Virus record (IMG/VR): IMGVR_UViG_3300043251_000023
Span: 9,544 to 73,543 of that record
Reading direction: 5' to 3' (one strand)
Length of the DNA: 64,000 bases
Origin: a virus
The position numbers were made by a program, and so were the translations under genes. The notes beneath the pieces were generated by a model. The model had not been told where the DNA came from. It made no database searches and saw nothing but the letters and a program-made list of their open reading frames with translations. Every line of letters begins with the position of its first letter. Position 1 is the stretch's first letter. Shown one piece after another: positions 33,852-52,971 of the stretch.

Positions 33852-35525
33852 ATTCCTGTAAAATCGCTGATCGACATCGACTTGAACGATCAGAAGTTCG
33901 TCGCTTTCAAAAAGCTGCACGATCAATACACGGCCGCACTCGCGAAGGCCCCGGCCCAATGGTCTATGGTCAATGCTGCAATCGGAAAGACCACAGAATC
34001 GACGCGCAAGCAGTTGACGGTCACCCGCCAACTCGCGGCGGAAGCGGCCAAGGTCCCGGCGTCGCTCGAAGCCGCGGTCGTGAAGTGGACGGCAATCGAC
34101 CGAATCACCCGGAACGTCGCGGGGACGGTCGGCTCGATCGCGCAGTCGATCTTCCGCATCGGGGCGGTGACCGGCGTGGTTGGGGGTCTGTTGGGGCTGG
34201 GAGGCCTCTTCGGCATCGATCGGATGGCCTATGGCGTCGCGGCGGGGCGGCGCTCATCGCTCGGCCTAGGCCTCGGCTACGGCCCGCAGCAGTCCTTTGG
34301 CGCGAACTTCGGCCGGCTGGTCGATCCCGAGTCGTTCCTGTCCGCCGTCGCCGGGGCGAAGTTCGACGTTAACCAAAGGGTCGGCCTCCTCGGCGCCGGG
34401 CTGACGCAGGCTCAAATTAACGGCGATACCGCGCAGACCGCCGTCGCGTTGCTCGACAACCTTAAACGGATCGCCGACACCACCAATCCGGCTCTTTACG
34501 GTCAAGTCATCCAAGCCCGCAGGATGGGAAATTTCGTTTCCACCGAAGACTTGAACCGCCTCCACCAGACATCGGCGGCTGAATATCAGCAGGTGCGCGC
34601 AGGGTTTTACGCGAACGTCGGGAAGAACAACGTTCCCGGAGACGTACTCAAGGGCTGGCAGGACTTCACGACGCAGTTACAGAACGCCGGCAACTCGATC
34701 TTCAACACGTTCGTTCGGGGATTGGCCCCGCTCGCTCCGGGTCTGACGCGGCTGTCGGACGCGGCCGAAAAGACAATCCACAGCTTCATGGCGTCGCCCG
34801 CGCTCGGGGATTGGATCAAGAAGGTCGACGTCGGGCTCGAGAAGTTCGCCGGCTACGTCGGCACGCCGGAATTTCAGAAGAGCGTCGAATCGTTCGTCGA
34901 GGGACTTTCGAAACTCGCCTCAACGGTATGGCGGTTCGTCCAATGGTTCGGCGGCGGGACGGGCGGTGCGCACGTCGCGGACCGTGCCAAATGGGCGCGG
35001 CTTCACGGTATGGGCCTCGAAACGTCAGGGGAGATGCGCGCGCGCCGGGCGGCCGGAACGGAAACCGCGCTCGGGCAACTCGGCCGCATCTTCGGGATCG
35101 GCGGCGGCACGATGACGATGGATCAGCTCATGGGCGTCGTCCGCAAGTCCGAGGCGAGCGGCGACCAAGCGGTGAGCCCAGCGGGCGCAATCGGCCGCTA
35201 CCAGATCATGCCGGGGACCGGGGCGATGTACGGCGCGAGCCCGCAGCAACTCATGGACCCGGCGACGAACGAGGCGGTGGCGCGGAAGTATCTCGCGTCG
35301 CTGGTCCAGAAGTACCACGGCGACACGCAGAAGGTCTTGGCCGCTTACAACTCCGGGCCGGGACGGGAGGACGCCGTTCTCGCCGGCAAGTCACAGATGC
35401 CGGCGGAGACCGCGCGCTACGTCGACCGCGCAAAGGGGCTTGACGGCTACGCGCCGACGGTGGTGACCATCGAGACCAAGGCCGGGGCCGATGTGGCGGT
35501 CAGTATCAACGGATTGAAAAACTAG
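33852..35525 (+). CDS. tape measure protein with C-terminal lytic transglycosylase (SLT); probable ATT start
   Basis: SEASGDQAVSPAGAIGRYQIMP...LAAYNSGPG; AGGAGG 5 nt before in-frame ATT. Confidence 0.85.
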   Translation: MPVKSLIDIDLNDQKFVAFKKLHDQYTAALAKAPAQWSMVNAAIGKTTESTRKQLTVTRQLAAEAAKVPASLEAAVVKWTAIDRITRNVAGTVGSIAQSIFRIGAVTGVVGGLLGLGGLFGIDRMAYGVAAGRRSSLGLGLGYGPQQSFGANFGRLVDPESFLSAVAGAKFDVNQRVGLLGAGLTQAQINGDTAQTAVALLDNLKRIADTTNPALYGQVIQARRMGNFVSTEDLNRLHQTSAAEYQQVRAGFYANVGKNNVPGDVLKGWQDFTTQLQNAGNSIFNTFVRGLAPLAPGLTRLSDAAEKTIHSFMASPALGDWIKKVDVGLEKFAGYVGTPEFQKSVESFVEGLSKLASTVWRFVQWFGGGTGGAHVADRAKWARLHGMGLETSGEMRARRAAGTETALGQLGRIFGIGGGTMTMDQLMGVVRKSEASGDQAVSPAGAIGRYQIMPGTGAMYGASPQQLMDPATNEAVARKYLASLVQKYHGDTQKVLAAYNSGPGREDAVLAGKSQMPAETARYVDRAKGLDGYAPTVVTIETKAGADVAVSINGLKN

Positions 35526-37106: not shown

Positions 37107-37376
37107 TGTCTGCTCCGCTTGCAATCTCTGCAGGAAACGCCAGATCGCCTTATAGCTTCCGATTCCTGTCAGTGCGATCTGGTGGGCGTTGAGTCCGCTT
37201 CGGTGAAGTTCGATGATCCGATCGTACCAACCGGGCGCTTTCTTTCGATAGCGACGGGATACCTCCCGCGTTGTTCCGTAATCGTATTTGCACGATGTGC
37301 ATCGGCGCTGATTGCGCCTGATCCGATAGACCTTGGAACACCCGCATCTCGGGCAGCACTCATTCTCCAGACCCAT
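37098..37376 (-). CDS. Zn-ribbon + HTH protein (IS1595-transposase N-terminus-like)
   Basis: CPRCG...CTSCK; GLNAHQIA..GIGSYKAIW. Confidence 0.6.
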   Translation of the reverse strand: MGLENECCPRCGCSKVYRIRRNQRRCTSCKYDYGTTREVSRRYRKKAPGWYDRIIELHRSGLNAHQIALTGIGSYKAIWRFLQRLQAEQTLR

Positions 37377-38314
37377 GTTCGCCTCTGATGTTCGGTCATC
37401 CCTGTGGCTGCGCTGAGAAGATCAAGAAGTTGGCGCATAGTAGCATCGACGTTTTGCCCGCGGCATTTGAACATAAACGTTAATTCACTGCGTCCTCGAT
37501 CTACATCTAAACAGGCATCAAGCATCAATAGAGCGGCGTTCCCCATCGACTTCTGAAAATCGCGCCTCCGCATCATTGATGTGTATTGGCGTTCGGTAAG
37601 ATCACCGCGTTTCTGATAGTGCAGACCACCGCGCGGTTCCGACCAATCAATGCTGACGTTTGGCTGGATCGCCGCCGCCTCCATATCCCACTGCCAAGAC
37701 CGGCCGGCGCGGAGTTGAAGCGCGGTGATCTTTTTTTCTGCATAAAGCTGCATGAGAATGTCGCGTTCGGATGGCGCGACAAGCTTACCGCCATCTTCGG
37801 ATTGATAATGCTCTACATTGAATTGCTGCCGCTCTGCCACATCAGCCATTGGGAAAGGCTGGTCTGCAAAGTCAGGTTTGTTGTCCCTCGGACGGTTTGC
37901 TAGATATTGCGCAACACTCTCAGCCAACGCCGACTCCATCGGGGTCCGTGGCGACTGCGGCTTCTGTGTGCGCTTCTGCCTCTTCCACCATCCGGGATGA
38001 TCGGCCATGAACTGCTCCCATTGGGCGGGGAGCATGTCGCCCTTCAGATTATTGCACTCTCTGCAGCACGGCACTAGCTGCGTGCCGCCAGCGGACGCGG
38101 GTACATAATGATCGCGCGTCGCGGCGACGCGCGAATGCGACGAAGTCCTCTCCATGAGTCGTTTGCAATAAGTGCACGGAAGCCCCTCGCCTTTGCGACC
38201 GCGAAGATTGAGCGGCGGCTCAACAAAGAAAAATGTTTTTGCTCCGGTGTTGCGGTCGATCTCTTTATAAAGAGGCTTGCGACCGTGTCCGTGCCGCGAC
38301 GTTCTAGTGCCCAT
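37169..38314 (-). CDS. HNH endonuclease fused to a helical (DUF6456-like) domain
   Basis: CTYC...TRDHYVP.S.GG...CRECNNLKG; LMQLYAEKKITALQLRAG. Confidence 0.75.
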   Translation of the reverse strand: MGTRTSRHGHGRKPLYKEIDRNTGAKTFFFVEPPLNLRGRKGEGLPCTYCKRLMERTSSHSRVAATRDHYVPASAGGTQLVPCCRECNNLKGDMLPAQWEQFMADHPGWWKRQKRTQKPQSPRTPMESALAESVAQYLANRPRDNKPDFADQPFPMADVAERQQFNVEHYQSEDGGKLVAPSERDILMQLYAEKKITALQLRAGRSWQWDMEAAAIQPNVSIDWSEPRGGLHYQKRGDLTERQYTSMMRRRDFQKSMGNAALLMLDACLDVDRGRSELTFMFKCRGQNVDATMRQLLDLLSAATGMTEHQRRTWVWRMSAARDAGVPRSIGSGAISADAHRANTITEQRGRYPVAIERKRPVGTIGSSNFTEADSTPTRSH

Positions 38315-38410: not shown

Positions 38411-39442
38411 TCAGACACTCTCTGTCCAAGGACGATCTTCCGTGCCGAGCATCGGCTGATCAAAAGATATGCGAGGCCCGGCGCCATCGTATTTTAGGGG
38501 CAGCGTTTTGAAATGCTTGGTGATGTACCTCCCAACAGCATCGTTTAGGTCGCCGACTGCAATATCGCCGGACAGCAGACCCACAATCATGTCCTGACAG
38601 ACATCCGCGCGGATGTGCTCGGGCCAGCTATCAGGAACGGCACCATTGACCAGCAGCACGAGATCGCGAGCACCGTCCGGCTTTTCGGGATCGTGCGCCA
38701 TGAACGGATAAAATAATTGCTTGCTGCGAGCGATACCGCGTTCACGGTCGCGATAGTCTTGGCCCGCATTTTCGTGAGTCGATATGCGCCATTCGGCGCA
38801 GTCAATGCGGTCGCTAAATCGGTCAACGCGCTGCAACTCCCAACAATGTTGGCCACCGACCATCTTCACATATTCGGTTAGTCCCTCGATATTTTTGGTG
38901 ACCGACGGATTGTCGTACAGGCGCCACAGAAAACTCCAAAGATGAGGCTTACTCGGCGGTCTCAGCGGCCCGCAGAGCTGCGAAAAGGCGGCGTTATTTA
39001 CGAGCTTGAGACCATCGCTCATAGTCTCCGCTTCCGCCGCCATCATCAGTAATATAAAATTCCACATGCGATGAGCGCGCCCGCGGTTCATGGCGCCGCG
39101 ATAAAGCAACAGCGGCGCAAATGTTTTTTCGATGCCCGGTCGGATGATCAGGTCCGACAGATAGTTCATTCCGGGATTTGTTGCCGTTCCCGTAGAATAC
39201 CAATGGTAAGGGCCCTTGCTCGAATTGAGCGCGCGAATCTGCTCCGGGCTCCGCTCGATGCGCGGCTTGCTTTGACCCCCAGGGACTCCGAAGTGAAGTC
39301 GAAACCAGCCGCGCGTTCCGGTTTGGCGACCAATGCGATTGTGGATAGCCTCAACGCGCCCGCTTTCCGTTAGCGGGCCTGGCGCGATCCAGATGCCGCG
39401 AGCAATCTCGCGTTCCTGTGGCGTTATTTCTATGCTCGGCAT
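38411..39442 (-). CDS. hypothetical protein
   Basis: 343-aa ORF with AAGGGAG SD. Confidence 0.75.
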   Translation of the reverse strand: MPSIEITPQEREIARGIWIAPGPLTESGRVEAIHNRIGRQTGTRGWFRLHFGVPGGQSKPRIERSPEQIRALNSSKGPYHWYSTGTATNPGMNYLSDLIIRPGIEKTFAPLLLYRGAMNRGRAHRMWNFILLMMAAEAETMSDGLKLVNNAAFSQLCGPLRPPSKPHLWSFLWRLYDNPSVTKNIEGLTEYVKMVGGQHCWELQRVDRFSDRIDCAEWRISTHENAGQDYRDRERGIARSKQLFYPFMAHDPEKPDGARDLVLLVNGAVPDSWPEHIRADVCQDMIVGLLSGDIAVGDLNDAVGRYITKHFKTLPLKYDGAGPRISFDQPMLGTEDRPWTESV

Positions 39443-39620: not shown

Positions 39621-40649
39621 TTGCGCTACTACAGGATCGTCATTACTTCGGCCTCGGGAGACGTAATTTCCCCACCCGGATTCGCCGGTCTTCTGGGCGG
39701 GGCGACCTACACGAGTTTCGTAAATAATCAAACACTTCCAGAGGCTTGGGACATTGAATTAGATATTCCCGTCATCGACGCGGCGACCAGTCAAGGCTTC
39801 GCGAACGCGCGCGTTTGGGGGATTTCCAATCAAGAAATCGGGCAGGCGAACAACCTCAACGGCAAGAACATCGCGATCTATGGCGGGATGCAAAAGGGGC
39901 TTCCGCTTGCGAACCCGGCGCAGTCCGGCCTGCTCGTCCAGGGGAACATCTTCCAGTGCTTCGGCAACAACATCGGGGTCGACCGGACGCTCGACTTCGT
40001 CATCCAGCCCGGAACGGCGACCGCGAGTGCGCCCGGCGGGACGGGATCGCTGAAGACGCCGAAGAACATCGTCCTCCTTTGGAAGGCCGGGCAGACGCTC
40101 GCGACCGCGCTCGCCACGGCCTTATCGACGGCCTTCCCGGGCGTGCAGCAGCAAATCTCGATTTCCGCGAACCTCGTGCGCCAGGCCGACGACGTTCACG
40201 TCGTGCCGACGCTCGAACTTTTGGCGCAATACTGCCGACAGGCCAGTTTTGACATCGTCAAGACGTCCGGCTACGCGGGCGTCAGCATCACCTATTCCGG
40301 GAACACGATCTCGGTCTCGGACGGCACGTCGGGGACCGCGGTGGCGGGGACGACGCAGATCGCGTTTCAAGACCTCATCGGACAACCGACCTGGATCGAG
40401 GCGCCGAACATCCAACTTAAAACGGTGATGCGCGCCGATCTCGCGGTGGGGAACCAGATCATGCTGCCGCCGACGCAGATTATCAACACGCAGCAGGCTA
40501 GTTCGGCGCTCGTGAACCAGCAGGTTTCCTTCCAGGGCGGCTTCAGCATCGTCAGCCTTCGGCACGTCGGCCACTTCCGGCAACCGTCCGCTGATGCGTG
40601 GGTGACCGTCATTGAAGCGGCGCCGAATCAGGTCGCGGCGGCCGCATGA
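39621..40649 (+). CDS. baseplate hub protein
   Basis: MRYY.I.I start; GGMQKGLPLANP, DLIGQPTW, RHVGHFRQ..ADAWVT. Confidence 0.8.
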   Translation: MRYYRIVITSASGDVISPPGFAGLLGGATYTSFVNNQTLPEAWDIELDIPVIDAATSQGFANARVWGISNQEIGQANNLNGKNIAIYGGMQKGLPLANPAQSGLLVQGNIFQCFGNNIGVDRTLDFVIQPGTATASAPGGTGSLKTPKNIVLLWKAGQTLATALATALSTAFPGVQQQISISANLVRQADDVHVVPTLELLAQYCRQASFDIVKTSGYAGVSITYSGNTISVSDGTSGTAVAGTTQIAFQDLIGQPTWIEAPNIQLKTVMRADLAVGNQIMLPPTQIINTQQASSALVNQQVSFQGGFSIVSLRHVGHFRQPSADAWVTVIEAAPNQVAAAA

Positions 40650-41219: not shown

Positions 41220-41567
41220 ATGCGAACTTTTGGCCGCGTGGTCAATCCAGACGGAAGCAAGTCGTGGGTGGAAGTCACCACCGATGCTAACGGTTTTGAT
41301 GACGCCGTGTGGATCACCACGCTTTGCCAAAACTTCCTATTGAATCTCAACGAGTCTCCGTTCGACGCCAACTGGGGATTGCCAGCGCAGCAATCCGTCC
41401 TTCAGCAGGTCCAGCCTGACTATTACGTCGCGCAGATTCAGCGGCAGTTTGCGCAATACTTCGCGAGCCTGATCATCTCCAAGGTGCCCGATGTGACAAC
41501 GCCGACCTATAACGTGGCAGTGACCACAAATCAGGGCTCAAAAATTATCGTCCAGGTGCCGACATGA
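41220..41567 (+). CDS. baseplate wedge/sheath initiator (gp25/gp46-like)
   Basis: LNLNESPFDANWGLP. Confidence 0.75.
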   Translation: MRTFGRVVNPDGSKSWVEVTTDANGFDDAVWITTLCQNFLLNLNESPFDANWGLPAQQSVLQQVQPDYYVAQIQRQFAQYFASLIISKVPDVTTPTYNVAVTTNQGSKIIVQVPT

Positions 41568-43018
41568 GCAACACGGACTTCGAGTTTCCGGTCGTCATCA
41601 CGTCGGCTGGGGTCCAACCGACGCCGCCAGCGACAATTCTCGCCGAACTTATCGCAAACGTCAGCGCAACGAATCCTGGATATACGGCAGTTTTGCCCGG
41701 ATCATTGATTCGCGATGTGTCGACTACGGAGGTCGGCGGCATCGCCCTGATCGACGCGGCGCGGGTCGAGACGCTGAACTCGATCTCACCCTACGCGGCG
41801 AACGACTTCCTGCTCTTGGAGCTCGGGCAAATCTATATCGGGCCGGGGGCGGCTCCGGGCGTCCCCACGAACACGTCGGTCTCGGTCGTCTTCACCGCCA
41901 TAGACCCAAATACCAGCGCGCCGCTCGGCGGCCAAGTGATCGCGGTCGGTTTCACGGTTTCCGACGGGACCTACCAGTACATCGTCCAGGACGGCGGGGT
42001 CACGTCCTCGAACGGTCAAAGCCTGCCGCTGTTCTGCATCGCGACGGTCTCCGGTTCGTGGGCGGTCCCGTCGGGAAGCGTGACGCAACTCGTCACGGCA
42101 GAACCGCCGGACGTCAACCTGACGTGCTCCAACCCGCAGCCGGGCTTCGCCGGTCTCGCCGCGGAGACGACGGAGCAATTCCGCGCGCGCGTCCTGATGG
42201 CGGGCCAAGCGATCGGGACCGGGACCGAATCGCTCCTCAAGACGCAGTTGTTCCAGGTTTCCGGCGTCCAGCAGCGGCTCGTCTCCGTGCGCCAGCAGGG
42301 GGCGGCTTGGGAGGTGATCGTCGGCGGCGGCGACCCGTATCAGGTTGCCGGGGCTATCTACGCCTCGGGGGTAAACATCGCCGGGCTGGTCGGATCGACG
42401 CTTTCGGTGACGAACATCACCAATGCGAACCCCGGGGTGGTGACGACGAACCTCAACCATGGCTTCGCGACCGGGCAAGTCATAACGATGGCCGGCATCG
42501 TCGGGATGACGCCGCTCAACGGGATACCGCTCACGATCACGGTTCTGACGGAGAAGACCTTCAGCATCGGCGTCGACACGACGGGTTATCCGCTCTACGT
42601 CAGCGGCGGCGTGGTTTCCCCGAACCTGCGCAATGCCACGCCGAACATCCGGGACGCGCCGGACCTTTACACGGTCCCCTTCGTCATCCCGCCGCAGCAG
42701 ACGGTGACGATCGCGGTGACCTGGAACACGACGCTGCCGAACTTCGTCTCGCAGGCGGCGGTCGCGCAACTCGCCGCCACGGCAATCGCGGCCTACATCA
42801 ATGGGATCGAGGTAGGGGCCCCGATCAGCCTGCTCGAGCTTGGGACGACGTTCGCCGCCGCGGTGATTTCCGTCATCGACCCGTCGACGATCTCGGTCCT
42901 GACGTTCGTCGTTTCGATCAACGGGGTCTCGACGGCGCCGACCGGACAGTTAGTCCAGGGCGATCCGGAGAGCTATATGTTTTCAACGGTCGCCGGCATC
43001 GCCGTAACGCAGGTCTAG
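41564..43018 (+). CDS. baseplate J-like protein with inserted beta-barrel domain
   Basis: LPGSLIRD, ETTEQFRARV, GGGDPYQVA. Confidence 0.85.
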   Translation: MSNTDFEFPVVITSAGVQPTPPATILAELIANVSATNPGYTAVLPGSLIRDVSTTEVGGIALIDAARVETLNSISPYAANDFLLLELGQIYIGPGAAPGVPTNTSVSVVFTAIDPNTSAPLGGQVIAVGFTVSDGTYQYIVQDGGVTSSNGQSLPLFCIATVSGSWAVPSGSVTQLVTAEPPDVNLTCSNPQPGFAGLAAETTEQFRARVLMAGQAIGTGTESLLKTQLFQVSGVQQRLVSVRQQGAAWEVIVGGGDPYQVAGAIYASGVNIAGLVGSTLSVTNITNANPGVVTTNLNHGFATGQVITMAGIVGMTPLNGIPLTITVLTEKTFSIGVDTTGYPLYVSGGVVSPNLRNATPNIRDAPDLYTVPFVIPPQQTVTIAVTWNTTLPNFVSQAAVAQLAATAIAAYINGIEVGAPISLLELGTTFAAAVISVIDPSTISVLTFVVSINGVSTAPTGQLVQGDPESYMFSTVAGIAVTQV

Positions 43019-43019
43019 C

Positions 43020-44093
43020 ATGGCGAGCCCGGTCTCCCTTTACGCGCCAGCGGCGACCGTCGTCACGGTGGGCGGCCAGCCGATCACGGCGGCCTATGGG
43101 CCTTTGCTCGGCGGCTTCATCCAGAATCCGTATAGCAACATCGACCAGGGGACGATCTTCGCGGAGCCGCTGTTCGTCAGCATCGATGGCCCTGCGGCGC
43201 TCTCCGACACCGGAACGACGACACGCCTCGAGGCCGGGGGCATTTTTCAGATCCCGCCGGGGCTAACCGGGAACGTCAGCGTCAACGCGGAAACCTCCGG
43301 GCACAAGTTCTCTGGGGTGGTCTTCCAATCTTCGACCCCGTTCCCGCCGACGCCGCAACCCGGCACTTTCCCGCCGTCCGAGCCGACGGTGGTGACGACC
43401 GTCATCCCGTCCTACCTCTACCAGCAATACCAGGACGACGACGATCTCCAGGCTTTCGTCGAGGCTTACAACGCCCTGGCACAGGGTTACGTCGACTGGT
43501 TCGTGAACACGCCGCTTCCGGTCTACACGAACGCCCTGATCGCCGGGCCGCTTCTGGATTGGGTTGCCGGCGGCGTCTACGGCATGATTCGGCCAGCGCT
43601 TTCCTCCGGGCGCAACCGGGACATCGGCCCAGTGAACACCTACGGGCCGAACACGCTGGAGCCCAACCGGCGGAAGGAAATCGGCCCACGGAACGTCGTC
43701 GCGACCTCCGACGATGTTTTCAAGCGGATAATGACGTGGAATTTTTACAAGGGGGACGGCAACGTCTTCGACATCCGGTGGCTGAAGCGGCGGATCAAGA
43801 GGTTCCTGATCGGCCCCAACGGAACGGCGCCGAACGTCGATGAGACCTACGAAATTAGCGTGACCTACGGCAACGGAGTCATCGCGATTCGCATCAGCGT
43901 CGGAACGCGGACGGTCACCGGCGGCGCGCTGCCAAATCGTTTCGGCTGCAATAGGCTGACGCCGAACGCGCTGAAAACCTTGTTCGTCCCGTCGCCGACG
44001 GTTCCTTTTCCGCTCGCGCCGGTACTGCAACAAGCACTACAGTCAGGCGTGCTACAAACTCCATTCCAATATGCTATAACGATTGCGGTCTAG
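43020..44093 (+). CDS. baseplate wedge subunit (DUF2612-like) with extra N-terminal domain
   Basis: IPSYLYQQYQDDDDLQAF, LLDWV, DDVFKRIMTWNFYKGDG; N-domain paralogous to 46133. Confidence 0.75.
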   Translation: MASPVSLYAPAATVVTVGGQPITAAYGPLLGGFIQNPYSNIDQGTIFAEPLFVSIDGPAALSDTGTTTRLEAGGIFQIPPGLTGNVSVNAETSGHKFSGVVFQSSTPFPPTPQPGTFPPSEPTVVTTVIPSYLYQQYQDDDDLQAFVEAYNALAQGYVDWFVNTPLPVYTNALIAGPLLDWVAGGVYGMIRPALSSGRNRDIGPVNTYGPNTLEPNRRKEIGPRNVVATSDDVFKRIMTWNFYKGDGNVFDIRWLKRRIKRFLIGPNGTAPNVDETYEISVTYGNGVIAIRISVGTRTVTGGALPNRFGCNRLTPNALKTLFVPSPTVPFPLAPVLQQALQSGVLQTPFQYAITIAV

Positions 44094-44104: not shown

Positions 44105-44737
44105 GTGTCCATATTTTTGATGGCGAATAATGCGTCGAGCACGCTCGCCGCGCCCATATCGAACTCCGCGACGACGGTCTCGCTCGCGGTCGGAACGGGA
44201 GCGCTGTTTCCCAACCCTAGCGCCGGCCAGCAATTCCCCCTCACCTTCAACGATGCCGCGACCGGGCTTTTGACGGAGATCGTCTATTGCACCTCGAGGG
44301 CCGGGGACACGCTCACCATCGTCCGGGCGCAGGAAGGAACGACTGCGCAGGCGTGGCTGGCGGGAGACCTCGCGGCGAACCTCATCACGGCAGGATTGCT
44401 CGCGGCCTACCAGCAGAGCGCGGCGCTCAGCCCGGCGCGGACGGTCACGGCCTCCGGGGCCTTCGCGATGAGCACGGCCGATGCCGGCGGAGGCGTCGGT
44501 CTTGACAGGATTGTCGGCCCTGCGGTTTCCTCGACCACGCTCCCGGTCTCGACCGATGGGCAAACCTACTGGATCGAGGACCTCGCCAGGAACTTCAACG
44601 CCTATCCGGTGACGGTGACATTTCCCGGGGGAACGACTGGACCGAACGGCGCCGCGACGGTCACGCTCAATGTCAACGGTCAGTGCGCGCAGTTCCGCTT
44701 CTACGCCGACAGCAACATTTGGAGTTTCCGACCATGA
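44105..44737 (+). CDS. proximal tail fibre/baseplate-anchoring protein
   Basis: ANNASSTLA...EIVYCTSRAGDTLTIVRAQEGTTAQAW. Confidence 0.75.
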   Translation: MSIFLMANNASSTLAAPISNSATTVSLAVGTGALFPNPSAGQQFPLTFNDAATGLLTEIVYCTSRAGDTLTIVRAQEGTTAQAWLAGDLAANLITAGLLAAYQQSAALSPARTVTASGAFAMSTADAGGGVGLDRIVGPAVSSTTLPVSTDGQTYWIEDLARNFNAYPVTVTFPGGTTGPNGAATVTLNVNGQCAQFRFYADSNIWSFRP

Positions 44738-46131
44738 CGAAGAGAATCGCCGCCTTTGCGGCCGGTCTTTTCCTTCTCCTCGCCTTCGCCTTCCCGGCGG
44801 CGGCGCAGTTCGACCAGGCGTCCTACGCCGGGACCGGAGCGGGCTCCGCGAACGCGCAGACCATCACCTTGCCGAACGCCACGCAATACAGCGATCTTCT
44901 CGGCGTTCTGATCAAGTACATTCCCGGCGTGACGAACACGGCCGCGGCCACGCTCGCCGTATCCGGTAACGGCGGTGCGCTGACCGGCGGTCCCATCTCT
45001 TTCCGCAAGCCGTCCATCGGCGGTCTGGTCGCCCTGACCGGCACCGAACTGATCGTCGGGCAACCCGTTTGGATCATGTACGACGGGACCTATTTCGACG
45101 TTCTGAGTGTGACCAGCAGCACGGTGACGGCCGCGAATCTCGCAAACTCGGCGCTCGGTTTTATGCCAGTCAATTCTCAGCTCAATGCTGCGGTGTCGGC
45201 TAACGCGCTGACGATCTCACTGTGTTCGGCCAACTCCGGCAGCAATACGTGCATCAATCCAAGCGCGACGAGTCCGGTCCTGATCCCGTTCCGTGATTCC
45301 ACGATTGCCTTTGGTGATCCGACTATCGTTCCGGTCACTGGCGCGCTCAGCTTCACCATCGCGTCTGGGCAAACGATGGGCTGCGTCAATAACCAGATGT
45401 GCCGGCTCTGGATTCTCGCCTTCAACAATGCCGGGACGGTCCAGCTTTGCGCGTTCAACGCGCTCAGCGGAACGTCGGTGGCGCCGATCAACGAGGGCGT
45501 CCTGCAGACGAGCCAGTCCGGCACTTCAGGCGGCTCGTCGGCGCAGCTTTATTACTGCAACGCCTCGGCGGTGACGAACAAGGCGGTCCGCATCCTCGGC
45601 TACGTCGAGATCAGCGAGTCCACGGCGGGGACTTGGGCGACCGGGCCGACCTACGTTCAGTTGTTCGGCCCGGGCGTGAAGAAGCCCGGTGACGTAGTCC
45701 AGCGCATTTTCTCGACTAATAGCACTTCGTATTCGTCGACGACGTCCTACGCGGCGGCGACGAATTTCAACCAAGCCATCACGCCGACGTCGGCGGCAAA
45801 CCCTGTGTTTGTTCATGCAGAAGCCAATTACCAGACGACCGCGAACGACGGCAGCAACGCTCAGATCGGCCGAACGAGTTGCTCGAATCTGGTGGGGAAT
45901 AATGCGGTGCTCAGTGGAAGCACCGCCGTGATTGGCATGGCGCCAGTATCGGCCATCGACTCCCCAAACACCACCTCGTCCGTCACTTACGTTCTGTGCC
46001 TGAAATCGTCGGTTAATGGCGCGACCGCGTTCAACAATAATACCGGCAACATCAGTTCGATGTCGGTCGAGGAGATTATGGGCGCGCTAGAACCGGCGAA
46101 CGACGACCAACCGCTCCGCATGGTGGGCTGA
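44734..46131 (+). CDS. tail fibre-like protein with N-terminal Sec signal peptide
   Basis: MTKRIAAFAAGLFLLLAFAFPAAA/Q; fibre motifs NTAAATL, PGDVVQ, AITPTSAAN; 8 Cys. Confidence 0.75.
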   Translation: MTKRIAAFAAGLFLLLAFAFPAAAQFDQASYAGTGAGSANAQTITLPNATQYSDLLGVLIKYIPGVTNTAAATLAVSGNGGALTGGPISFRKPSIGGLVALTGTELIVGQPVWIMYDGTYFDVLSVTSSTVTAANLANSALGFMPVNSQLNAAVSANALTISLCSANSGSNTCINPSATSPVLIPFRDSTIAFGDPTIVPVTGALSFTIASGQTMGCVNNQMCRLWILAFNNAGTVQLCAFNALSGTSVAPINEGVLQTSQSGTSGGSSAQLYYCNASAVTNKAVRILGYVEISESTAGTWATGPTYVQLFGPGVKKPGDVVQRIFSTNSTSYSSTTSYAAATNFNQAITPTSAANPVFVHAEANYQTTANDGSNAQIGRTSCSNLVGNNAVLSGSTAVIGMAPVSAIDSPNTTSSVTYVLCLKSSVNGATAFNNNTGNISSMSVEEIMGALEPANDDQPLRMVG

Positions 46132-46132
46132 C

Positions 46133-46459
46133 ATGGCAGCGACTCCCGTCACGCCGCAACCGGCGCTCAACTCTCAGGTCGCCGTCGGCGGAACCGCGGT
46201 GAATGTCTTCGGGCCGGCGCCGAATGGCGGCTATCTCCAGAACCCGGCGTCGGCAAACGATCAGGGCATCGGCGCTGCGGAAGACTTGATCGTCAATCCA
46301 GTCACCGCGGCAGTCGCGCCCGGCGTCGCCGGCGGCGTCAATGGAACGAACTTCCGCATCCCCCCCGGCGGGGGATGGAATCTCATCGCTGGACAGACGA
46401 CTCCTACTTCGATGAACGCGGCAACGTCGGGCCACAAGATAAGCGGCGTGTCTTATTGA
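46133..46459 (+). CDS. small virion protein, paralog of the 43020 N-domain
   Basis: GGYLQNP.S..DQG...AE.L.V...NAATSGHKISGV. Confidence 0.7.
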   Translation: MAATPVTPQPALNSQVAVGGTAVNVFGPAPNGGYLQNPASANDQGIGAAEDLIVNPVTAAVAPGVAGGVNGTNFRIPPGGGWNLIAGQTTPTSMNAATSGHKISGVSY

Positions 46460-46469
46460 GGAACGAAAA

Positions 46470-49400
46470 ATGCTGAATATCGCGCGCGCATTTGCGTTCC
46501 TTGCCGTCGTTGCATTCGGCGGTTCCGCCGTTGCACAACCTGGTCCGGGACAAAATAGCGGCCCGGTCCCACCGCCGTCGCCTTGGCTCTATGCGGCGCC
46601 GCAGATTTATCCCCCGACTGGATCTTGCGTGACGATGCCGCAGACCGTGCCAGGCGGCTGCCCGGGCGCAGGCAACGCGATCAACGTCTCTGGCGGCTAT
46701 TATCTTAACGGCGTTGCCCTTGATAGCATAAGCAGCGTCACGCCTCCTCTAAGTGTCAGCTCTGGAGTTCTCAGCATTCTCAATGGGACCTCCATTGCCA
46801 ATCCCGGTACGGGAACGCTTGAAGATTTAGTGCCATCGCAGACGATCACCGGAACCAGCAAAGTTTACGCCACGGTCGATCTCTGGAAGCGGACACGACG
46901 TTCCAATTCCGGAACGGCGATGACCGACACGCTACCGGCTTCTTCGGCAACGGGCATGGTCAATGGCGCCCGCATTGAGATCAAGAACGTGGATGCTTCG
47001 GCGACGGACACGGTCAGTGCCGGCGCCGGGACGACAATCATTGGCGGGGCATCCTTCTCGCTCCAGGCAGGCCGCGACCTAGAGTTGACCTATGACCTCG
47101 CAAACACGACGTGGCGAGCGGAGGCCAATACCGATACCGCGGCGCTCATCAATCAGCCGAACTTCTACAGCGCGGACAACTATTTTGGTTCGGGCCGTCC
47201 AGTGTGCGACCCGCGTGCAAAAGGGGCAGTTGGCAACGGGAGCACAGACGACAGCGCGGCGTTCAAGGCTTGCCGCGTGGCACTTGATGCTATTGGCGGC
47301 GGCGTTATCTATGTGCCGCCAGGGAATTACTGTCTAAAGACCGCCGACGCGAACAACGCGGTCATCGCAATTTCGGCAACGCCGATCACGGTCATCGGCG
47401 CCGGCATCAACGTCTCAAATCTATGGACCTGCGGTACCGACGTTACAATCGGTTACGCGAATATCGTTGGCGCCGGCTTCTTGAATTTGAGCTACCTGGG
47501 CAAAGGGGGTCAAGGTAACCCTAACGACACCACCTTTGGTGCTACGTCGCCAGCTTTCAAATTTGATACGTCATGCGGTATTTGTCGGATCAGTTACGTG
47601 CGCGGCTTTGGCGGCCTCTATGCTCTGCAAAACCTTGGCTTTGATAGCTGGGTATCGGACTTCTCATTCGGCTACACTTACGGCAACGCGATCATGTATG
47701 AGGCTGGCAACGGCCATCGGGTGGAACATGGCGCGCTGGATCAAAATTGGCCGGTCGTTCTGCCGAACCAAAATTCAGTCACGATCAGCGCGTGGCAAGC
47801 GACGCATTCCTACAGCGGCAACGGCGCTTCGAACACGAATGTCGTTTCGACGCAAGGCTACAATATTCAGCTTGTGAGTGCGAGTTGCACTAGCGGCGGT
47901 ACCGCGCCGCCCTTGAATAATTACGGAACTGTGATTGTGGATGGGTCCTGTTCCTGGCAACTCGTCGGCAACACGACCTATTACGGGGAGGATTGCGACG
48001 GGAATTGCGCCGAACTTATCCTGCATGGCGAGGTCGATCTGAATTGCGGCGGCTGCACATACGACTTCGCCATGACGAACAACAATGCTGGAACCGCCCC
48101 CAACGTTGTGACCGTCGACGGATCAAGCATCGGGCAGGCCATAATCGCACCTATCGGGCTGCTCGCCGGGTCAGGGTTTACGCTGTCGAACAGCCATATC
48201 GCGACCTCCGTACAGGGTGGGGCGTTGGGCCTATACGTCCCGGCAAGCGGCTTCACCGGGGACGCGTCCATTGTCGGCAATAGATTTAGCGGGGGCGGCG
48301 CGTGCATCGGAATTGGCACTGCGCCGTCTGGACAGGCCGGATATACGATAACCGCTAACCGGTTTTTAAGCTGTTCCCAGGCTATCGATTATTTCAATAC
48401 CGGGGCGGCGCTGCACATTACGGCCGGTCACAATACGATGGTCGGCGTCAGCAATGCGTGGGTGTCGCCCGCCGGCTCAAGCTATTACGAATTCACCAAT
48501 AACGATGTGGGTGGAGCGGCAGTCACCTTCACGAGTGGGGACGCCAACAAGAAGATCGCCGGCAACGACGGTTCGGCAACGCCTGTTAGTAACGGTGGCA
48601 CTGGTTTAGCTACATTGACAGCGCACGCGGTTCTGCTCGGCGAGGGCGCCGGTAACGTCGCCTTTGCCACCATCGGCACCGGTGGCAGGCTGTTGATCGA
48701 CCAGGGCGCGGTCGATCCCGTCTTCACCGCGATGAGCGGCGACGCCGCGCTGGCAGCGAGCGGCGCGCTAACGCTGGCGACAGTGAACGGCAACGTCGGC
48801 ACCTTCGGCGGCGCCAACGCCATCCCGAGCATCACCGTCAACGGCAAGGGCCTCGTCACCGCCGTCTCGACCGTGGCGCCGAACCCGACCCAGGTTAACG
48901 GCGTCTCCTTCGGCGCCGCACCGATCGGCACCAACACCGTCTGCGTTGCGACCAGCACCACTGCTTGCGCTTGGAGTTCGGTGCCGAACGCGGCGCTCGC
49001 CAACTCGACGATCTCGGGCGTCTCGCTCGGCGGCAGCCTCGCGGTGCTGAGCTACGGAACGCACCTGACCAACGGGGCCGGGGCCGGCTCCTACAACGGC
49101 TCCGCCGCGTCAACGCTCGCGACTGACGCGACCAACACCAACACGGCGTCGACCATCGTCGCCCGCGACGGCTCCGGCAACTTCTCCGCCGGGACAGTCA
49201 CGGCCAGCCTGACGGGGCACGCGTCACTGGACCTCGCGCTGACCGGGGGGGCGATGTCGGGCAACATCGCGATGGCCGGCAACTCGCTCACTGGAGCGAT
49301 GGGGCTGAACGGCGTCGAGACGATTCTCAGCGGCGGCAACATCGGCTTCGGCACCGAGACCAACCCGCAGGCGGCGTTCGTCTTCAGCGCGAACACCACG

Positions 49401-50159
49401 ACCGGCATCACGTTTCCGGTCAACACGAGCGGGCTCTGGTCGATCAGCGCCAACTCCGGCAACGTGCCGGGGTTCAACGCCCTGGCGTTTGCCACGAACG
49501 GCAGCAACTTCTTCTTTCGCGCCGACGGCACCGCGGCGAGCCCCACGGCGCTCGCGCTCAACGACAACATCGGCGCCATCACCTGGGGCGGCTACGCCGG
49601 GTCCACCGCCGGCTACGTCTCCAGCAAGGCCCGCATCGCGGGCATCGTGATCGACGCCTCGGGCTACGGCACCTCGACGCAGGGCACCGGCATCGAGTTC
49701 GACGCCACGCCGTCCGGCAGCACCACCCGCGCCCAGGCCGGTCGCTTCATGGCGGGCTTCATCGTGGGCACCGGCACGACCGACCCCGGCGCCGGTAATG
49801 AACTTGTCGGTGGTCATATCCTAGCAACCGGAACGGCGCCGACGATTTCTGCCTGCGGCACCGGAACGCCGACGATCTCCGGCGGCGACAACTTCGGGAC
49901 CGTGGTGGCTGGCACTGTCGCCACGTCGTGCGTCGTCAACTTCGGAGCGACCTGGGGTGCCGCCCCGCGTTGTGCCGTCTCGTCGGGAACAGCCATTGCT
50001 TCTTTGACTGTCAGCGCCACGACGACGCAACTGACGATCACCGGGACCGCGCTCGGCGGCGACACGATCAACTGGGTCTGCGGGAGCACCGCCAGCCTGG
50101 AACCGAATGGTTCGCCGGCCAACGACAATGCGCCACCGTGGCTATCCAAAGCCGCTTGA
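46470..50159 (+). CDS. tailspike/fibre with pectate-lyase-like beta-helix and N-terminal Sec signal peptide
   Basis: MLNIARAFAFLAVVAFGGSAVA/Q; GAVGNGSTDDSAAF...GGGVIYVPPGNY; fibre motifs ITVNGKGLVT, TIVARDGSGNFSAG. Confidence 0.85.
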   Translation: MLNIARAFAFLAVVAFGGSAVAQPGPGQNSGPVPPPSPWLYAAPQIYPPTGSCVTMPQTVPGGCPGAGNAINVSGGYYLNGVALDSISSVTPPLSVSSGVLSILNGTSIANPGTGTLEDLVPSQTITGTSKVYATVDLWKRTRRSNSGTAMTDTLPASSATGMVNGARIEIKNVDASATDTVSAGAGTTIIGGASFSLQAGRDLELTYDLANTTWRAEANTDTAALINQPNFYSADNYFGSGRPVCDPRAKGAVGNGSTDDSAAFKACRVALDAIGGGVIYVPPGNYCLKTADANNAVIAISATPITVIGAGINVSNLWTCGTDVTIGYANIVGAGFLNLSYLGKGGQGNPNDTTFGATSPAFKFDTSCGICRISYVRGFGGLYALQNLGFDSWVSDFSFGYTYGNAIMYEAGNGHRVEHGALDQNWPVVLPNQNSVTISAWQATHSYSGNGASNTNVVSTQGYNIQLVSASCTSGGTAPPLNNYGTVIVDGSCSWQLVGNTTYYGEDCDGNCAELILHGEVDLNCGGCTYDFAMTNNNAGTAPNVVTVDGSSIGQAIIAPIGLLAGSGFTLSNSHIATSVQGGALGLYVPASGFTGDASIVGNRFSGGGACIGIGTAPSGQAGYTITANRFLSCSQAIDYFNTGAALHITAGHNTMVGVSNAWVSPAGSSYYEFTNNDVGGAAVTFTSGDANKKIAGNDGSATPVSNGGTGLATLTAHAVLLGEGAGNVAFATIGTGGRLLIDQGAVDPVFTAMSGDAALAASGALTLATVNGNVGTFGGANAIPSITVNGKGLVTAVSTVAPNPTQVNGVSFGAAPIGTNTVCVATSTTACAWSSVPNAALANSTISGVSLGGSLAVLSYGTHLTNGAGAGSYNGSAASTLATDATNTNTASTIVARDGSGNFSAGTVTASLTGHASLDLALTGGAMSGNIAMAGNSLTGAMGLNGVETILSGGNIGFGTETNPQAAFVFSANTTTGITFPVNTSGLWSISANSGNVPGFNALAFATNGSNFFFRADGTAASPTALALNDNIGAITWGGYAGSTAGYVSSKARIAGIVIDASGYGTSTQGTGIEFDATPSGSTTRAQAGRFMAGFIVGTGTTDPGAGNELVGGHILATGTAPTISACGTGTPTISGGDNFGTVVAGTVATSCVVNFGATWGAAPRCAVSSGTAIASLTVSATTTQLTITGTALGGDTINWVCGSTASLEPNGSPANDNAPPWLSKAA

Positions 50160-50197
50160 CCGCGCTATTCTTGAGTTCGTCAACAGGGAAAACCACC

Positions 50198-50680
50198 ATG
50201 CGAATCATCGCCATTGCTCTTGCCGCCATCGCCATTGTGACGCCAGCCGCCGCTCAATCTCCAAAGCCACTCACCGTCCTGCAATGCCTCACCGTTCTTA
50301 AAGGCCTCTCCGCTCTCGGCTGCGTCGGCGAACAACTCGACGGGACGTGCACGCCCGACGCCAAGCAGTACAAACTCGGCGCGCTCCGGCTGACCACCGG
50401 CCTGAATATCTCGCGCCTTCAGGACTTGGCGAACACGGTCCAGCGCGCGCAGAACGGCTTCAACTCAGAACTGCCGCCGCTCGATCCGAAGGCCTTCGAT
50501 GCCGACAAGGTCGCGCGCGGCAACCAGATTCAAGCGAACTGGAACAAGATTATCGACGCGGAGTGCCCGGTCCAGCCCGGCCACATCAAGGCGTCCGACT
50601 TGAAGCTCGGCGATGGTCCGGACGAGAACGCGGTCCCGCCGTCCGTACTTGGGGCGCTGGCGCCGATCATTGACCCCTGA
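50198..50680 (+). CDS. secreted fibre-associated (chaperone-like) protein
   Basis: MRIIAIALAAIAIVTPAAA/Q; 4 Cys; directly after the tailspike. Confidence 0.7.
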   Translation: MRIIAIALAAIAIVTPAAAQSPKPLTVLQCLTVLKGLSALGCVGEQLDGTCTPDAKQYKLGALRLTTGLNISRLQDLANTVQRAQNGFNSELPPLDPKAFDADKVARGNQIQANWNKIIDAECPVQPGHIKASDLKLGDGPDENAVPPSVLGALAPIIDP

Positions 50681-52164: not shown

Positions 52165-52971
52165 ATGACGCGCAAGTTTCTCCTGGCGACGACCGCGCTC
52201 GTCGCTCTGAGCGCCTCCGCTTTCGCCGCCGATCTTCCGTTGAAAGCACCGCCTGCCGCTCCTGCTGCTGCCGGTTCCGGCTGGTACGTTGGCATTCTCA
52301 CCGAAGCCGACGTTGCTCAATCGAACGTGAGTGGCACGAACGTATTCGCGACCAGCCTCGCCAGCGGTAATCTGACCGCAACCGGCGGCGCCGTGGGTGG
52401 CGAGTTCGGCTATATCGGGAATGGTCCCATCGGGTGGTATCGACTTCAGGCCACTGGCGAATGGAGCGACATTTCTGGCGCCGAGACCGTTCAATCGACG
52501 GCAACGACCAGCGCGGCGAGTGCAGCCGTTGCGAGCCGATGGTCCGCGACCCAAGAGTTCGACATCGGCTTCGAGTGGATTCAAAAAATCTACGCGGCGC
52601 TACCGACTCTCGGCGTCATCAACTTCCCGACGTTTACTCCGATCACGCCGACAGTCCCCGTCGGGGCACCGCGCCAGTACGTTGGCGTCGGCATCAAGGA
52701 AGCCGGCCTAACCGGCACCTTTGGCGCCGCTCAGGGTACCTCTGTCGGCGTCTACCCGATGATCACCGGCGGCTTCATCTGGCCAACGCTCAACGCGGCC
52801 GGCAAGCCGAACGGTGGCGCGATCGACGCCTCCGCCGGCGTGGCGTTTCCGGTCAAGGGATTCACCGTGGGGAACGCCTTCGCGACGGATGGTGCCCCTC
52901 TGACGCTCGGCGCTGGCGCTAGCCTCGGCACGCAGTACTGGACCCGGCTGAGCTACCAGTTCGGCCTGTGA
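52165..52971 (+). CDS. outer-membrane beta-barrel protein (Omp25/RopB-like)
   Basis: Signal peptide, then AADLPLKAP, GWYVG, GGEFGY; C-terminal RLSYQF. Confidence 0.8.
   Translation: MTRKFLLATTALVALSASAFAADLPLKAPPAAPAAAGSGWYVGILTEADVAQSNVSGTNVFATSLASGNLTATGGAVGGEFGYIGNGPIGWYRLQATGEWSDISGAETVQSTATTSAASAAVASRWSATQEFDIGFEWIQKIYAALPTLGVINFPTFTPITPTVPVGAPRQYVGVGIKEAGLTGTFGAAQGTSVGVYPMITGGFIWPTLNAAGKPNGGAIDASAGVAFPVKGFTVGNAFATDGAPLTLGAGASLGTQYWTRLSYQFGL

What the first reader, a model, noticed from the sequence alone, without database searches (positions are those of the whole stretch)
46081..50159. Genetically encoded ssrA-tag-like C-terminal tails on both exported fibre proteins
Seen: after the apparent domain ends (...VEEIM and ...WVCGS) both proteins carry related extensions, GALEPANDDQPLRMVG and TASLEPNGSPANDNAPPWLSKAA. 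Known: alphaproteobacterial tmRNA tags begin AANDN and end in AA (Caulobacter AANDNFAEEFAVAA); they are read by SspB/ClpXP in the cytoplasm and by Tsp in the periplasm. Inference: built-in degrons remove non-exported precursors or time fibre maturation, which fits the signal-peptide finding.
Basis: partly seen in the sequence, partly recalled or inferred. Interest (0 to 1): 0.8.

Follow-up and report, generated by a model that had tools for sequence, protein, structure and literature searches.

The report
Host tmRNA-tag mimic on phage fibres
Two exported fibre-like proteins of a soil phage end in a short floppy tail that copies the 'destroy me' tag its host bacteria add to unfinished proteins, so the phage may be borrowing the host's disposal machinery to police these proteins.

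Summary
Both proteins (44734-46131 and 46470-50159) carry the quoted tails. The window is part of a complete 73.5-kb contractile-tailed phage. The tail is a conserved, separable module. 92 of 120 relatives of protein 1 have it, with the motif 11-13 residues from the C-terminus in 86 of those 92, and 24 stop exactly at the domain end. It also sits on at least three other C-terminal domain types. Three alphaproteobacterial genomes with related prophages encode the tmRNA tag ANDNYAPVALAA. Of 22 sampled tags, 21 start ANDN and all end AA. The tails resemble natural tags beyond ANDN: score 7.89 against 2.17±0.35 when shuffled, and the best pairs share 10 of 12 residues. Both tails are predicted disordered. 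Synonymous codons vary, so selection acts on the peptide. Function is inferred: most likely an adaptor (SspB)-assisted ClpXP degron for molecules left in the cytoplasm. Against this, two thirds of tails end in G rather than AA. Tail-less relatives keep their signal peptides. Similar tails occur on cytoplasmic phage DNA methyltransferases, so the tie to export is not exclusive. The docking prediction gave only weak support.

The parts
44734..46131 (+). Gene for protein 1 (465 aa). It is an exported, beta-rich fibre or lectin-like protein.
   Evidence: ORF. 380 relatives found. AlphaFold2 mean pLDDT 81.9, all-beta, with jelly-roll/TNF-like fold matches. No Pfam or PHROG family.
44734..44805 (+). 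Predicted Sec signal peptide of protein 1 (residues 1-24, ...PAAA|QF).
   Evidence: Sequence. A24 and Q25 are invariant in 44 aligned relatives. 115 of 120 relatives have a signal-peptide-like start by a crude rule that scores 0 of 121 methyltransferases. The cleavage site is inferred.
46084..46128 (+). Tail 1, ALEPANDDQPLRMVG. It has a LEP linker, the ANDD motif (46096..46107) and 7 more residues to the C-terminus.
   Evidence: Conserved in 92 of 120 relatives. pLDDT is below 50 for residues 451-465. Synonymous codon variety is seen in relatives.
46470..50159 (+). Gene for protein 2 (1229 aa). It is an exported fibre-like protein with a Cys-containing terminal domain.
   Evidence: ORF. C-terminal domain relatives. 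Terminal domain pLDDT is above 90. Two invariant and two nearly invariant Cys. No Pfam or PHROG family.
46470..46535 (+). Predicted Sec signal peptide of protein 2 (residues 1-22, ...AVA|QP).
   Evidence: Sequence. Relatives with a complete N-terminus show the same kind of start. The cleavage site is inferred.
50094..50156 (+). Tail 2, SLEPNGSPANDNAPPWLSKAA. It has a LEP linker, a 4-residue insert, the ANDN motif (50118..50129) and 9 more residues ending AA.
   Evidence: Relatives with the same terminal domain carry tails or stop at CGSTA/CGSTS. pLDDT falls from above 90 to about 50 over the tail.

Best explanation
The tails are gene-encoded mimics of the host's tmRNA (ssrA) tag. They are portable and disordered. 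Each has a LEP linker, the ANDN part that alphaproteobacterial tags share (the part the SspB adaptor reads in E. coli), a spacer of tag-like length and make-up, and a small C-terminal dipeptide. Proposed working (inferred): while a precursor is still in the cytoplasm, the tail is bound by host SspB and handed to ClpXP. Molecules that are not exported in time, or that fold before export, are then unfolded and destroyed from the C-terminus. Exported molecules escape, because the adaptor and protease are cytoplasmic. The frequent VG or TG ending would make a weakened, adaptor-dependent degron, so that export usually wins the race. Shown here: the tails exist, are conserved, are under peptide-level selection, are disordered, and resemble natural tags along their whole length. 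Also shown: the hosts have the tmRNA gene and SspB side by side. Inferred: binding, degradation and the purpose.
For: Tail conservation and fixed geometry: 92 of 120 relatives carry the motif, and it starts 11, 12 or 13 residues from the end in 38, 29 and 19 of them. It is a separable module: 24 of 120 relatives stop at the domain end. The same tail follows other domain types, namely CGSTA, CGSVS and ...RDLDP ends and a Gly-rich exported protein. Hosts: related loci lie in Rhizobiales, Xanthobacteraceae and Alphaproteobacteria MAGs. Their tmRNA tag is ANDNYAPVALAA in 3 of 3, and SspB lies about 100 bases downstream of the tmRNA gene. Natural tags: 21 of 22 start ANDN, 22 of 22 end AA, and 18 of 19 distinct tags are 10-15 residues long. 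The part of the tails after the motif is tag-like. The mean best score is 7.89, against 2.17 (sd 0.35) for shuffled tails and 0.54 (sd 0.41) for random C-termini from the same loci. Without the last two residues it is 5.69 against 1.48 (sd 0.31). The best pairs share 10 of 12 positions. Disorder. Peptide-level selection: three Ala codons, both Asn codons and both Asp codons are used at the motif in 21 tails. In an unbiased census of DNA encoding LEPANDN, 20 of 56 non-duplicate matches in ORFs with at least 150 aa upstream have the stop 13-19 residues after the L. Similar tails on cytoplasmic DNA methyltransferases point to a cytoplasmic reader. Docking of residues 431-465 on host SspB residues 1-120 gave weak support: score 0.47, best control 0.00. 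That mark was reached by 58 of 80 solved complexes and 2 of 110 mismatched pairs, but at 0.60 or under by only 7 of the 80 and by both mismatches. The runs agree in at least 60% of contacts and the partner's pLDDT is at least 49. A like complex is solved (2QAS, 2QAZ), so the pass may come from memory.
Against: The last two residues are the part ClpX reads in the E. coli tag (established knowledge). They are AA in all 22 natural tags. Among 126 distinct tails they are VG in 67, TG in 7, AG in 5 and AA in only 29. Protein 1 of this window ends MVG. The proteins have signal peptides and conserved cysteines, so their working life is outside the compartment that holds SspB and ClpXP. Tail-less relatives keep the signal peptide (26; 43 of 63 loci are tail-less), so the tail is not needed for export. 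In the three prophage-host pairs available, the middle of the tail does not copy the host's own tag, and only one shares three residues, VAL. The conserved LEP linker has no counterpart in natural tagging. No experiment exists, and no cultured relative was found among 50,697 phage records.
Confidence: 0.45

Rival explanations
1. Periplasmic C-terminal processing. After export the tail is read by the host's tail-specific S41 protease (Prc/CtpA type). That protease either trims the tail as a pro-peptide, which would time maturation, or destroys molecules that fail to fold.
For: The proteins are exported. Peptidase_S41 genes are present in 3 of 3 host genomes. Tail-less relatives end exactly where trimming would leave the protein. 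Small or non-polar endings such as MVG would suit a PDZ-type reader of C-termini. That the E. coli enzyme degrades ssrA-tagged periplasmic proteins is recalled knowledge, not read here.
Against: This does not explain why ANDN, 11-13 residues from the end, is the most conserved part. It does not explain the like tails on cytoplasmic methyltransferases. No alphaproteobacterial S41 specificity was available to compare.
Confidence: 0.2
2. Adaptor decoy. The tail binds SspB, but with a G ending it is a poor ClpX substrate. Abundant late precursors would then occupy the adaptor and spare other phage proteins, or blunt the host's tag-dependent proteolysis.
For: ANDN is kept while the ClpX-type AA ending is mostly lost, with 84 of 126 distinct tails ending in G. 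The docking result was weak support (score 0.47 against 0.00, with the caveats given above).
Against: Exported proteins leave the cytoplasm, which makes them poor decoys. 29 of 126 tails, protein 2 of this window included, keep AA. The phage encodes no SspB or tmRNA of its own that would point to wider meddling.
Confidence: 0.1
3. A docking peptide for a phage or envelope partner, for example an assembly factor, the neighbouring 108-aa protein, or an anchoring site. On this reading the likeness to the tag is convergent or irrelevant.
For: Conserved C-terminal peptides after variable receptor-binding domains are a common way to bind assembly factors (general knowledge). The LEP linker is conserved but is not part of natural tags.
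Against: The downstream 108-aa gene does not follow the tail. Counts were tail with it 6, tail without it 12, no tail with it 2, neither 43. The tail sits on unrelated proteins, including a methyltransferase. The similarity to natural tags extends through the variable middle.
Confidence: 0.12
4. A conserved DNA joint for swapping fibre modules by recombination, with no role for the peptide.
For: The tail lies at the border between a variable domain and the next gene.
Against: Codons vary synonymously while the residues are kept. Tail 2 is followed by a different intergenic sequence. The same peptide occurs in unrelated genes.
Confidence: 0.03

Closest known systems
The alphaproteobacterial tmRNA (ssrA) tag with its SspB adaptor and ClpXP
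   Same: The tails share the ANDN start, the overall length (11-13 against mostly 10-15), a tag-like middle, a position at the extreme C-terminus and disorder. A minority also share the AA ending. [quoted passage not shown]
   Different: The tails are encoded in the gene rather than added by trans-translation. They are preceded by LEP rather than by the tmRNA-borne alanine. Most end in VG or TG.
ssrA-like tags on the repressor and integrase of mycobacteriophages with integration-dependent immunity (Broussard et al. 2013, seen only as described in passages of PMC9635641)
   Same: These are phage genes that carry a built-in C-terminal ssrA-like degradation tag, so that host ClpXP sets the protein's level.
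   Different: There the tag sits on cytoplasmic regulators and is removed by integration within the gene. Here it sits on exported fibre-like proteins (and some methyltransferases) of alphaproteobacterial phages. It also copies the adaptor-binding part, and no link to an attachment site was seen or tested.
Engineered SspB-dependent degrons with a weakened ClpX end (abstract of PMC3064785 in the listing; the design principle is recalled)
   Same: They keep an intact adaptor-binding part and a weakened terminal tripeptide, so that degradation depends on the adaptor. This is the logic proposed here for the VG and TG endings.
   Different: Those degrons are man-made and tested. The natural tails are untested.
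C-terminal extensions removed by S41 carboxy-terminal processing proteases (the pre-D1 and PBP3 types; recalled, not read here)
   Same: A short C-terminal extension on an extracytoplasmic protein. Relatives without the extension end at the presumed mature end.
   Different: Those extensions are not known to copy the adaptor-binding part of the ssrA tag.
Intramolecular chaperone domains of phage fibres and spikes (Peptidase_S74, PF13884)
   Same: A C-terminal appendage on a phage fibre-like protein. Some distant relatives of protein 2 carry PF13884 instead of a tail.
   Different: That is a folded domain of about 100 residues or more that cleaves itself off. Neither protein here matches it, and the tails are 15-21 disordered residues.

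Membership tests
ssrA-like C-terminal degron (adaptor site plus ClpX end) | Lies at the extreme C-terminus and is unstructured | tested here: met
   pLDDT is below 50 for residues 451-465 of protein 1. pLDDT falls to about 50 over the tail of protein 2. The motif lies 11-13 residues from the end in 86 of 92 tails.
ssrA-like C-terminal degron (adaptor site plus ClpX end) | The N-terminal part equals the conserved start of the host class's tag | tested here: met
   Tails have ANDN (52) or ANDD (25) among 92. 21 of 22 sampled natural tags start ANDN, the three linked hosts included.
ssrA-like C-terminal degron (adaptor site plus ClpX end) | Ends in AA-COOH like natural tags: protein 2 | tested here: met
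   Protein 2 ends ...LSKAA. 22 of 22 natural tags end AA.
ssrA-like C-terminal degron (adaptor site plus ClpX end) | Ends in AA-COOH like natural tags: protein 1 and most of the family | tested here: not met
   Protein 1 ends MVG. Among 126 distinct tails VG occurs in 67, AA in 29, TG in 7 and AG in 5.
ssrA-like C-terminal degron (adaptor site plus ClpX end) | Binds the SspB adaptor | tested here: inconclusive
   The prediction gave only weak support (0.47 against 0.00 for the best control). It may come from memory of solved SspB-peptide complexes.
ssrA-like C-terminal degron (adaptor site plus ClpX end) | Makes the protein unstable in a ClpXP- or SspB-dependent way | not testable with these tools
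   Needs reporter stability assays.
True tmRNA tagging (trans-translation product) | The tag is not encoded in the gene and is added at a stalled ribosome | tested here: not met
   Both tails are in frame in the ORFs and end at ordinary stop codons. The phage has no tmRNA gene.
C-terminal sorting signals of the PEP-CTERM / LPXTG kind | A motif followed by a hydrophobic helix and a basic cluster | tested here: not met
   The 7-9 residues after the motif are polar or small and hold no hydrophobic helix.
Peptidase_S74 intramolecular chaperone domain | Match to PF13884 at the C-terminus | tested here: not met
   No Pfam family matched either protein at E up to 0.01.
Integration-dependent-immunity tags of mycobacteriophages | The tag sits on a repressor or integrase, with the attachment site inside the gene | tested here: not met
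   The bearers lie in the tail-fibre module between baseplate and lysis genes, and match no regulator or integrase family. An attachment site was not looked for.

The most novel reading that the evidence does not exclude
Phages of Rhizobiales own a portable, full-length copy of the host's tmRNA tag and fix it onto chosen proteins as a compartment sensor. On Sec-exported, disulfide-containing fibre or depolymerase proteins it would give 'destroy if still in the cytoplasm, spare once outside'. A contractile-tailed phage could then mature its receptor-binding proteins in the periplasm and join them to virions only at lysis. On DNA methyltransferases the same module would set the enzyme's lifetime. 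The G-ending variants would be natural adaptor-dependent degrons.
Probability: 0.2. Interest if true: 0.85.

Novelty: new variant of a known kind. Interest (0 to 1): 0.7.

Why it matters
Built-in ssrA-like tags are known on a few cytoplasmic phage regulators. They are not known on exported, structural-type phage proteins, and not as a whole-tag copy that includes the adaptor-binding part. If the tails work as proposed, they would be a natural example of compartment-dependent proteolysis. They would offer a ready set of graded, adaptor-dependent degrons for Alphaproteobacteria such as Caulobacter and the rhizobia. They would also give a handle on an odd fact seen here: the fibre-like proteins of a contractile-tailed phage carry Sec signal peptides and conserved cysteines. 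In addition, they would supply a host-prediction mark, since the tail motif should follow the host class's tmRNA tag.

Tried and rejected
1. A tmRNA gene or other RNA under the tails: none found by ARAGORN or Rfam in the window, and none in the whole phage record.

2. Homology between the two proteins as the cause of the likeness: BLASTP found only E = 0.72 over the two C-termini. The tails are a shared module on unrelated domains.

3. The downstream 108-aa gene as the tail's partner: it does not co-occur with the tail.

4. Tail presence against base composition: tail-bearing loci average 0.613 G+C and tail-less loci 0.591, with overlapping ranges.

5. Host-specific copying of the variable middle. 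In the three prophage-host pairs the tails do not copy the host tag. Five genomes whose tags best match some tails were searched for the two protein families, giving 0 of 5 and one weak unrelated hit. A search of 401 genomes of the order found 8 with relatives, but the only tail bearer among them was the one already known. This question stays open.

6. A cultured relative: only two 30-31% partial matches among 50,697 phage records.

7. The two primary papers on the alphaproteobacterial SspB were not held. Which tag residues that adaptor reads could therefore not be compared with the tail's conservation profile.

9. P0042, a fusion of a protein 1 relative with the downstream gene, is a single case that reads like a frameshift after ANDNGT. 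It was set aside.

10. 'ADNDNL' near the end of Peptidase_S74-type relatives lies in a coiled-coil context, not in a tail. These were excluded from the tail counts by rule.
Full report
WHAT IS THERE

The window is bases 9544-73543 of a 73,543-bp virus record with direct terminal repeats, rated complete. PHROG matches give terminase, portal, head protease and major head protein. They also give a tail sheath (30600-32246), a lytic tail protein (33882-35525), a baseplate hub (39621-40649) and a baseplate wedge (41564-43018). It is therefore a contractile-tailed phage.

Behind the baseplate genes the order is as follows:
- a 357-aa protein;
- a 210-aa protein with a tail-fibre N-terminal domain;
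- protein 1 (44734-46131);
- a 108-aa ORF;
- protein 2 (46470-50159);
- a 160-aa protein with a signal peptide;
- an endolysin with a peptidoglycan-binding domain.

Neither matches any Pfam or PHROG family.

THE TAIL IS A CONSERVED, SEPARABLE MODULE

Of the best 120 of 380 relatives of protein 1, 92 carry a four-residue motif in the last 30 residues: ANDN in 52, ANDD in 25 and near variants in 15. The motif starts 11, 12 or 13 residues from the C-terminus in 38, 29 and 19 cases, and 10, 14 or 15 residues in the other six. The last three residues are MVG in 53.

Of the 28 relatives without the motif, 24 stop right at the end of the last beta strand (...EIMG...EIQG and the like). Two have a tail variant without the motif and two are aberrant.

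Relatives of the terminal domain of protein 2 behave the same way. Many continue after ...CGSTA with a LEP linker and an ANDN tail, and others stop at CGSTA or CGSTS.

Further tail types follow other domain ends...RDLDP-...CGSVS-, and a Gly-rich exported protein.

The two proteins of the window are not otherwise alike.

In 65 loci, 24 of 5,718 stop-to-stop ORFs matched a loose tail pattern, and three of these look like chance.

It gave 164 matches, 143 after removing duplicates. Among the 56 in ORFs with at least 150 residues upstream, 20 have the stop 13-19 residues after the L. The other 36 are spread from 21 to several hundred residues, and they include an internal motif of LexA/S24-type repressors.

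Selection acts on the peptide. In 21 tails the motif uses GCG, GCA and GCC, AAC and AAT, and GAC and GAT, and the following Leu, Arg, Val and Gly codons vary too.

AlphaFold2 models put both tails outside the fold. For protein 1 the mean pLDDT is 81.9 and residues 451-465 are below 50. For protein 2 the terminal domain is above 90 and the tail about 50. The fold of protein 1 matches jelly-roll and TNF-like trimeric heads.

LIKENESS TO THE HOST TAG

Related loci lie in MAGs named Rhizobiales, Xanthobacteraceae and Alphaproteobacteria. One of them sits inside a 4-Mb contig. All three genomes have a two-piece tmRNA whose tag reads ANDNYAPVALAA. In all three, sspB lies just downstream of the tmRNA gene.

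SspB was found in 57 of 61 sampled genomes of the class.

From 31 loci ARAGORN read 22 tags. 21 start ANDN and 22 end AA. The distinct tags are 10-15 residues long except one of 20.

126 distinct tails were taken from 134 tail-bearing proteins among the 357 proteins held at that point. The part after the motif is far more like natural tags than chance:
- mean best score 7.89, against 2.17 (sd 0.35, maximum 3.24 in 200 rounds) when the same residues are shuffled;
- 0.54 (sd 0.41) for random C-termini from the same loci;
- without the last two residues, 5.69 against 1.48 (sd 0.31).

The best pairs share 10 of 12 positions, for example the tail ANDNFAELRKAA with the tag ANDNFAEVRAAA. These best pairs are not known phage-host pairs.

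WHAT SPEAKS AGAINST A SIMPLE DEGRON

All natural tags end AA. Among the distinct tails, 67 end VG, 7 TG, 5 AG, 3 IG, 2 FG and only 29 AA. In this window protein 1 ends MVG and protein 2 ends KAA.

The bearers are exported, whereas SspB and ClpXP are cytoplasmic. Evidence for export is the signal peptides, four invariant cysteines in protein 1, and two invariant and two nearly invariant cysteines in the terminal domain of protein 2.

The tail is dispensable for export. By a crude signal-peptide rule that scores 0 of 121 methyltransferases, 89 tail bearers and 26 tail-less relatives of protein 1 have signal-peptide-like starts. Three tail bearers fail the rule; two of them are N-terminal fragments and one is an evident miss.

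In the three prophage-host pairs the tail's middle is not the host's. Attempts to find more pairs failed.

The docking test of the tail on host SspB gave weak support only: 0.47 against 0.00 for the best control. That mark was reached by 58 of 80 solved complexes and 2 of 110 mismatches, but at 0.60 or under by only 7 of the 80 and by both mismatches. The runs agree in at least 60% of contacts and the partner's pLDDT is at least 49. SspB-peptide complexes of this family are solved (2QAS, 2QAZ), so the pass may come from memory.

TAILS WITHOUT SIGNAL PEPTIDES

The census turned up a phage DNA methyltransferase (PF01555) ending ...LEPANDNTAPGAQAQVAA. Among it and its 120 best relatives, several of which are named from Mesorhizobium, Rhizobium and Methylobacterium, [AD]NDN occurs in the last 70 residues of 36. 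That is 36 occurrences in 8,470 residues, against 7 in the other 49,593. Five have EPANDN. Eight have tag-like geometry, with the motif 9-17 residues from the end and an AA ending. In the others the motif lies up to 54 residues from the end.

So the module is not confined to exported proteins. This argues for a cytoplasmic reader and against an export-specific role. Most of these enzymes also have an [LM]F motif nearby (102 of 121). From memory it resembles a sliding-clamp-binding motif, so part of that signal may be something else.

MOST LIKELY WORKING

The tails are gene-encoded mimics of the tmRNA tag. I put 0.45 on an SspB-assisted ClpXP degron that removes molecules still in the cytoplasm, with the G endings as weakened, adaptor-dependent versions. 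I put 0.2 on periplasmic reading by the S41 protease, which is present in 3 of 3 hosts. I put 0.1 on an adaptor decoy, 0.12 on a docking peptide for some other partner (the 108-aa neighbour is excluded), and 0.03 on a mere recombination joint (disfavoured).

COMPARISON WITH WHAT IS KNOWN

Built-in ssrA-like tags on phage proteins are known for the repressor and integrase of mycobacteriophages with integration-dependent immunity. I saw this only in passages of PMC9635641.

A Pseudomonas phage encoding its own SspB has been described (passage of PMC5587285). This phage has none.

Four full-text searches returned nothing on ssrA-like tails on exported or structural phage proteins. These searches cover open-access papers and bioRxiv only.

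I therefore rate the finding a new variant of a known kind.

Noticed in passing
window 44734-50680: Three consecutive proteins in the tail-fibre module of a contractile-tailed phage start with Sec-type signal peptides: protein 1, protein 2 and the 160-aa protein at 50198-50680. The first two have conserved cysteines. How exported proteins would join virions assembled in the cytoplasm is unexplained.
   Followed up: partly
window 46133-46459 and 43020-44093: The 108-aa ORF between the two tailed genes is homologous to the N-terminal ~100 residues of the 357-aa protein (both end ...SGHK[FI]SGV..). It recurs downstream of some protein 1 relatives. In one relative (P0042) it is fused to the fibre by what reads like a frameshift.
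   Followed up: partly
L089 829-2184 (-) and proteins P0358-P0478: Phage or prophage DNA methyltransferases of Rhizobiales have variable C-terminal extensions rich in [AD]NDN (36 of 121) and in an [LM]F motif (102 of 121). Eight have ssrA-tag-like geometry ending AA.
   Followed up: partly
L112-L143 (host loci): In Alphaproteobacteria the tmRNA gene lies within about 1.5 kb of sspB. This held in the 3 linked hosts and in 19 of 28 other loci scanned, a synteny that ties adaptor and tag together.
   Followed up: partly
L183 (metagenome locus, minus strand): An ORF whose end reads like a membrane helix plus RRK is followed by LEPANDNDDTFNRMAA. This would be a tail placed after a membrane anchor. 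The ORF is cut at its 5' end.
   Followed up: no
L077, L111, L180, L190, L205, L208, L210, L242, L259: LexA/S24-type repressors carry LEPANDN[YF] as an internal motif about 30 residues from the C-terminus. These are not tails and are a source of false hits for the motif.
   Followed up: partly
window 37169-38314 (-): An HNH endonuclease gene, and a second minus-strand ORF at 38411-39442, sit inside the otherwise plus-strand tail module. This looks like a homing-endonuclease insertion.
   Followed up: no
window 52165-52971: A 268-aa protein with a signal peptide lies after the lysis genes and matches no Pfam or PHROG family. It may be an envelope protein carried by the phage.
   Followed up: no
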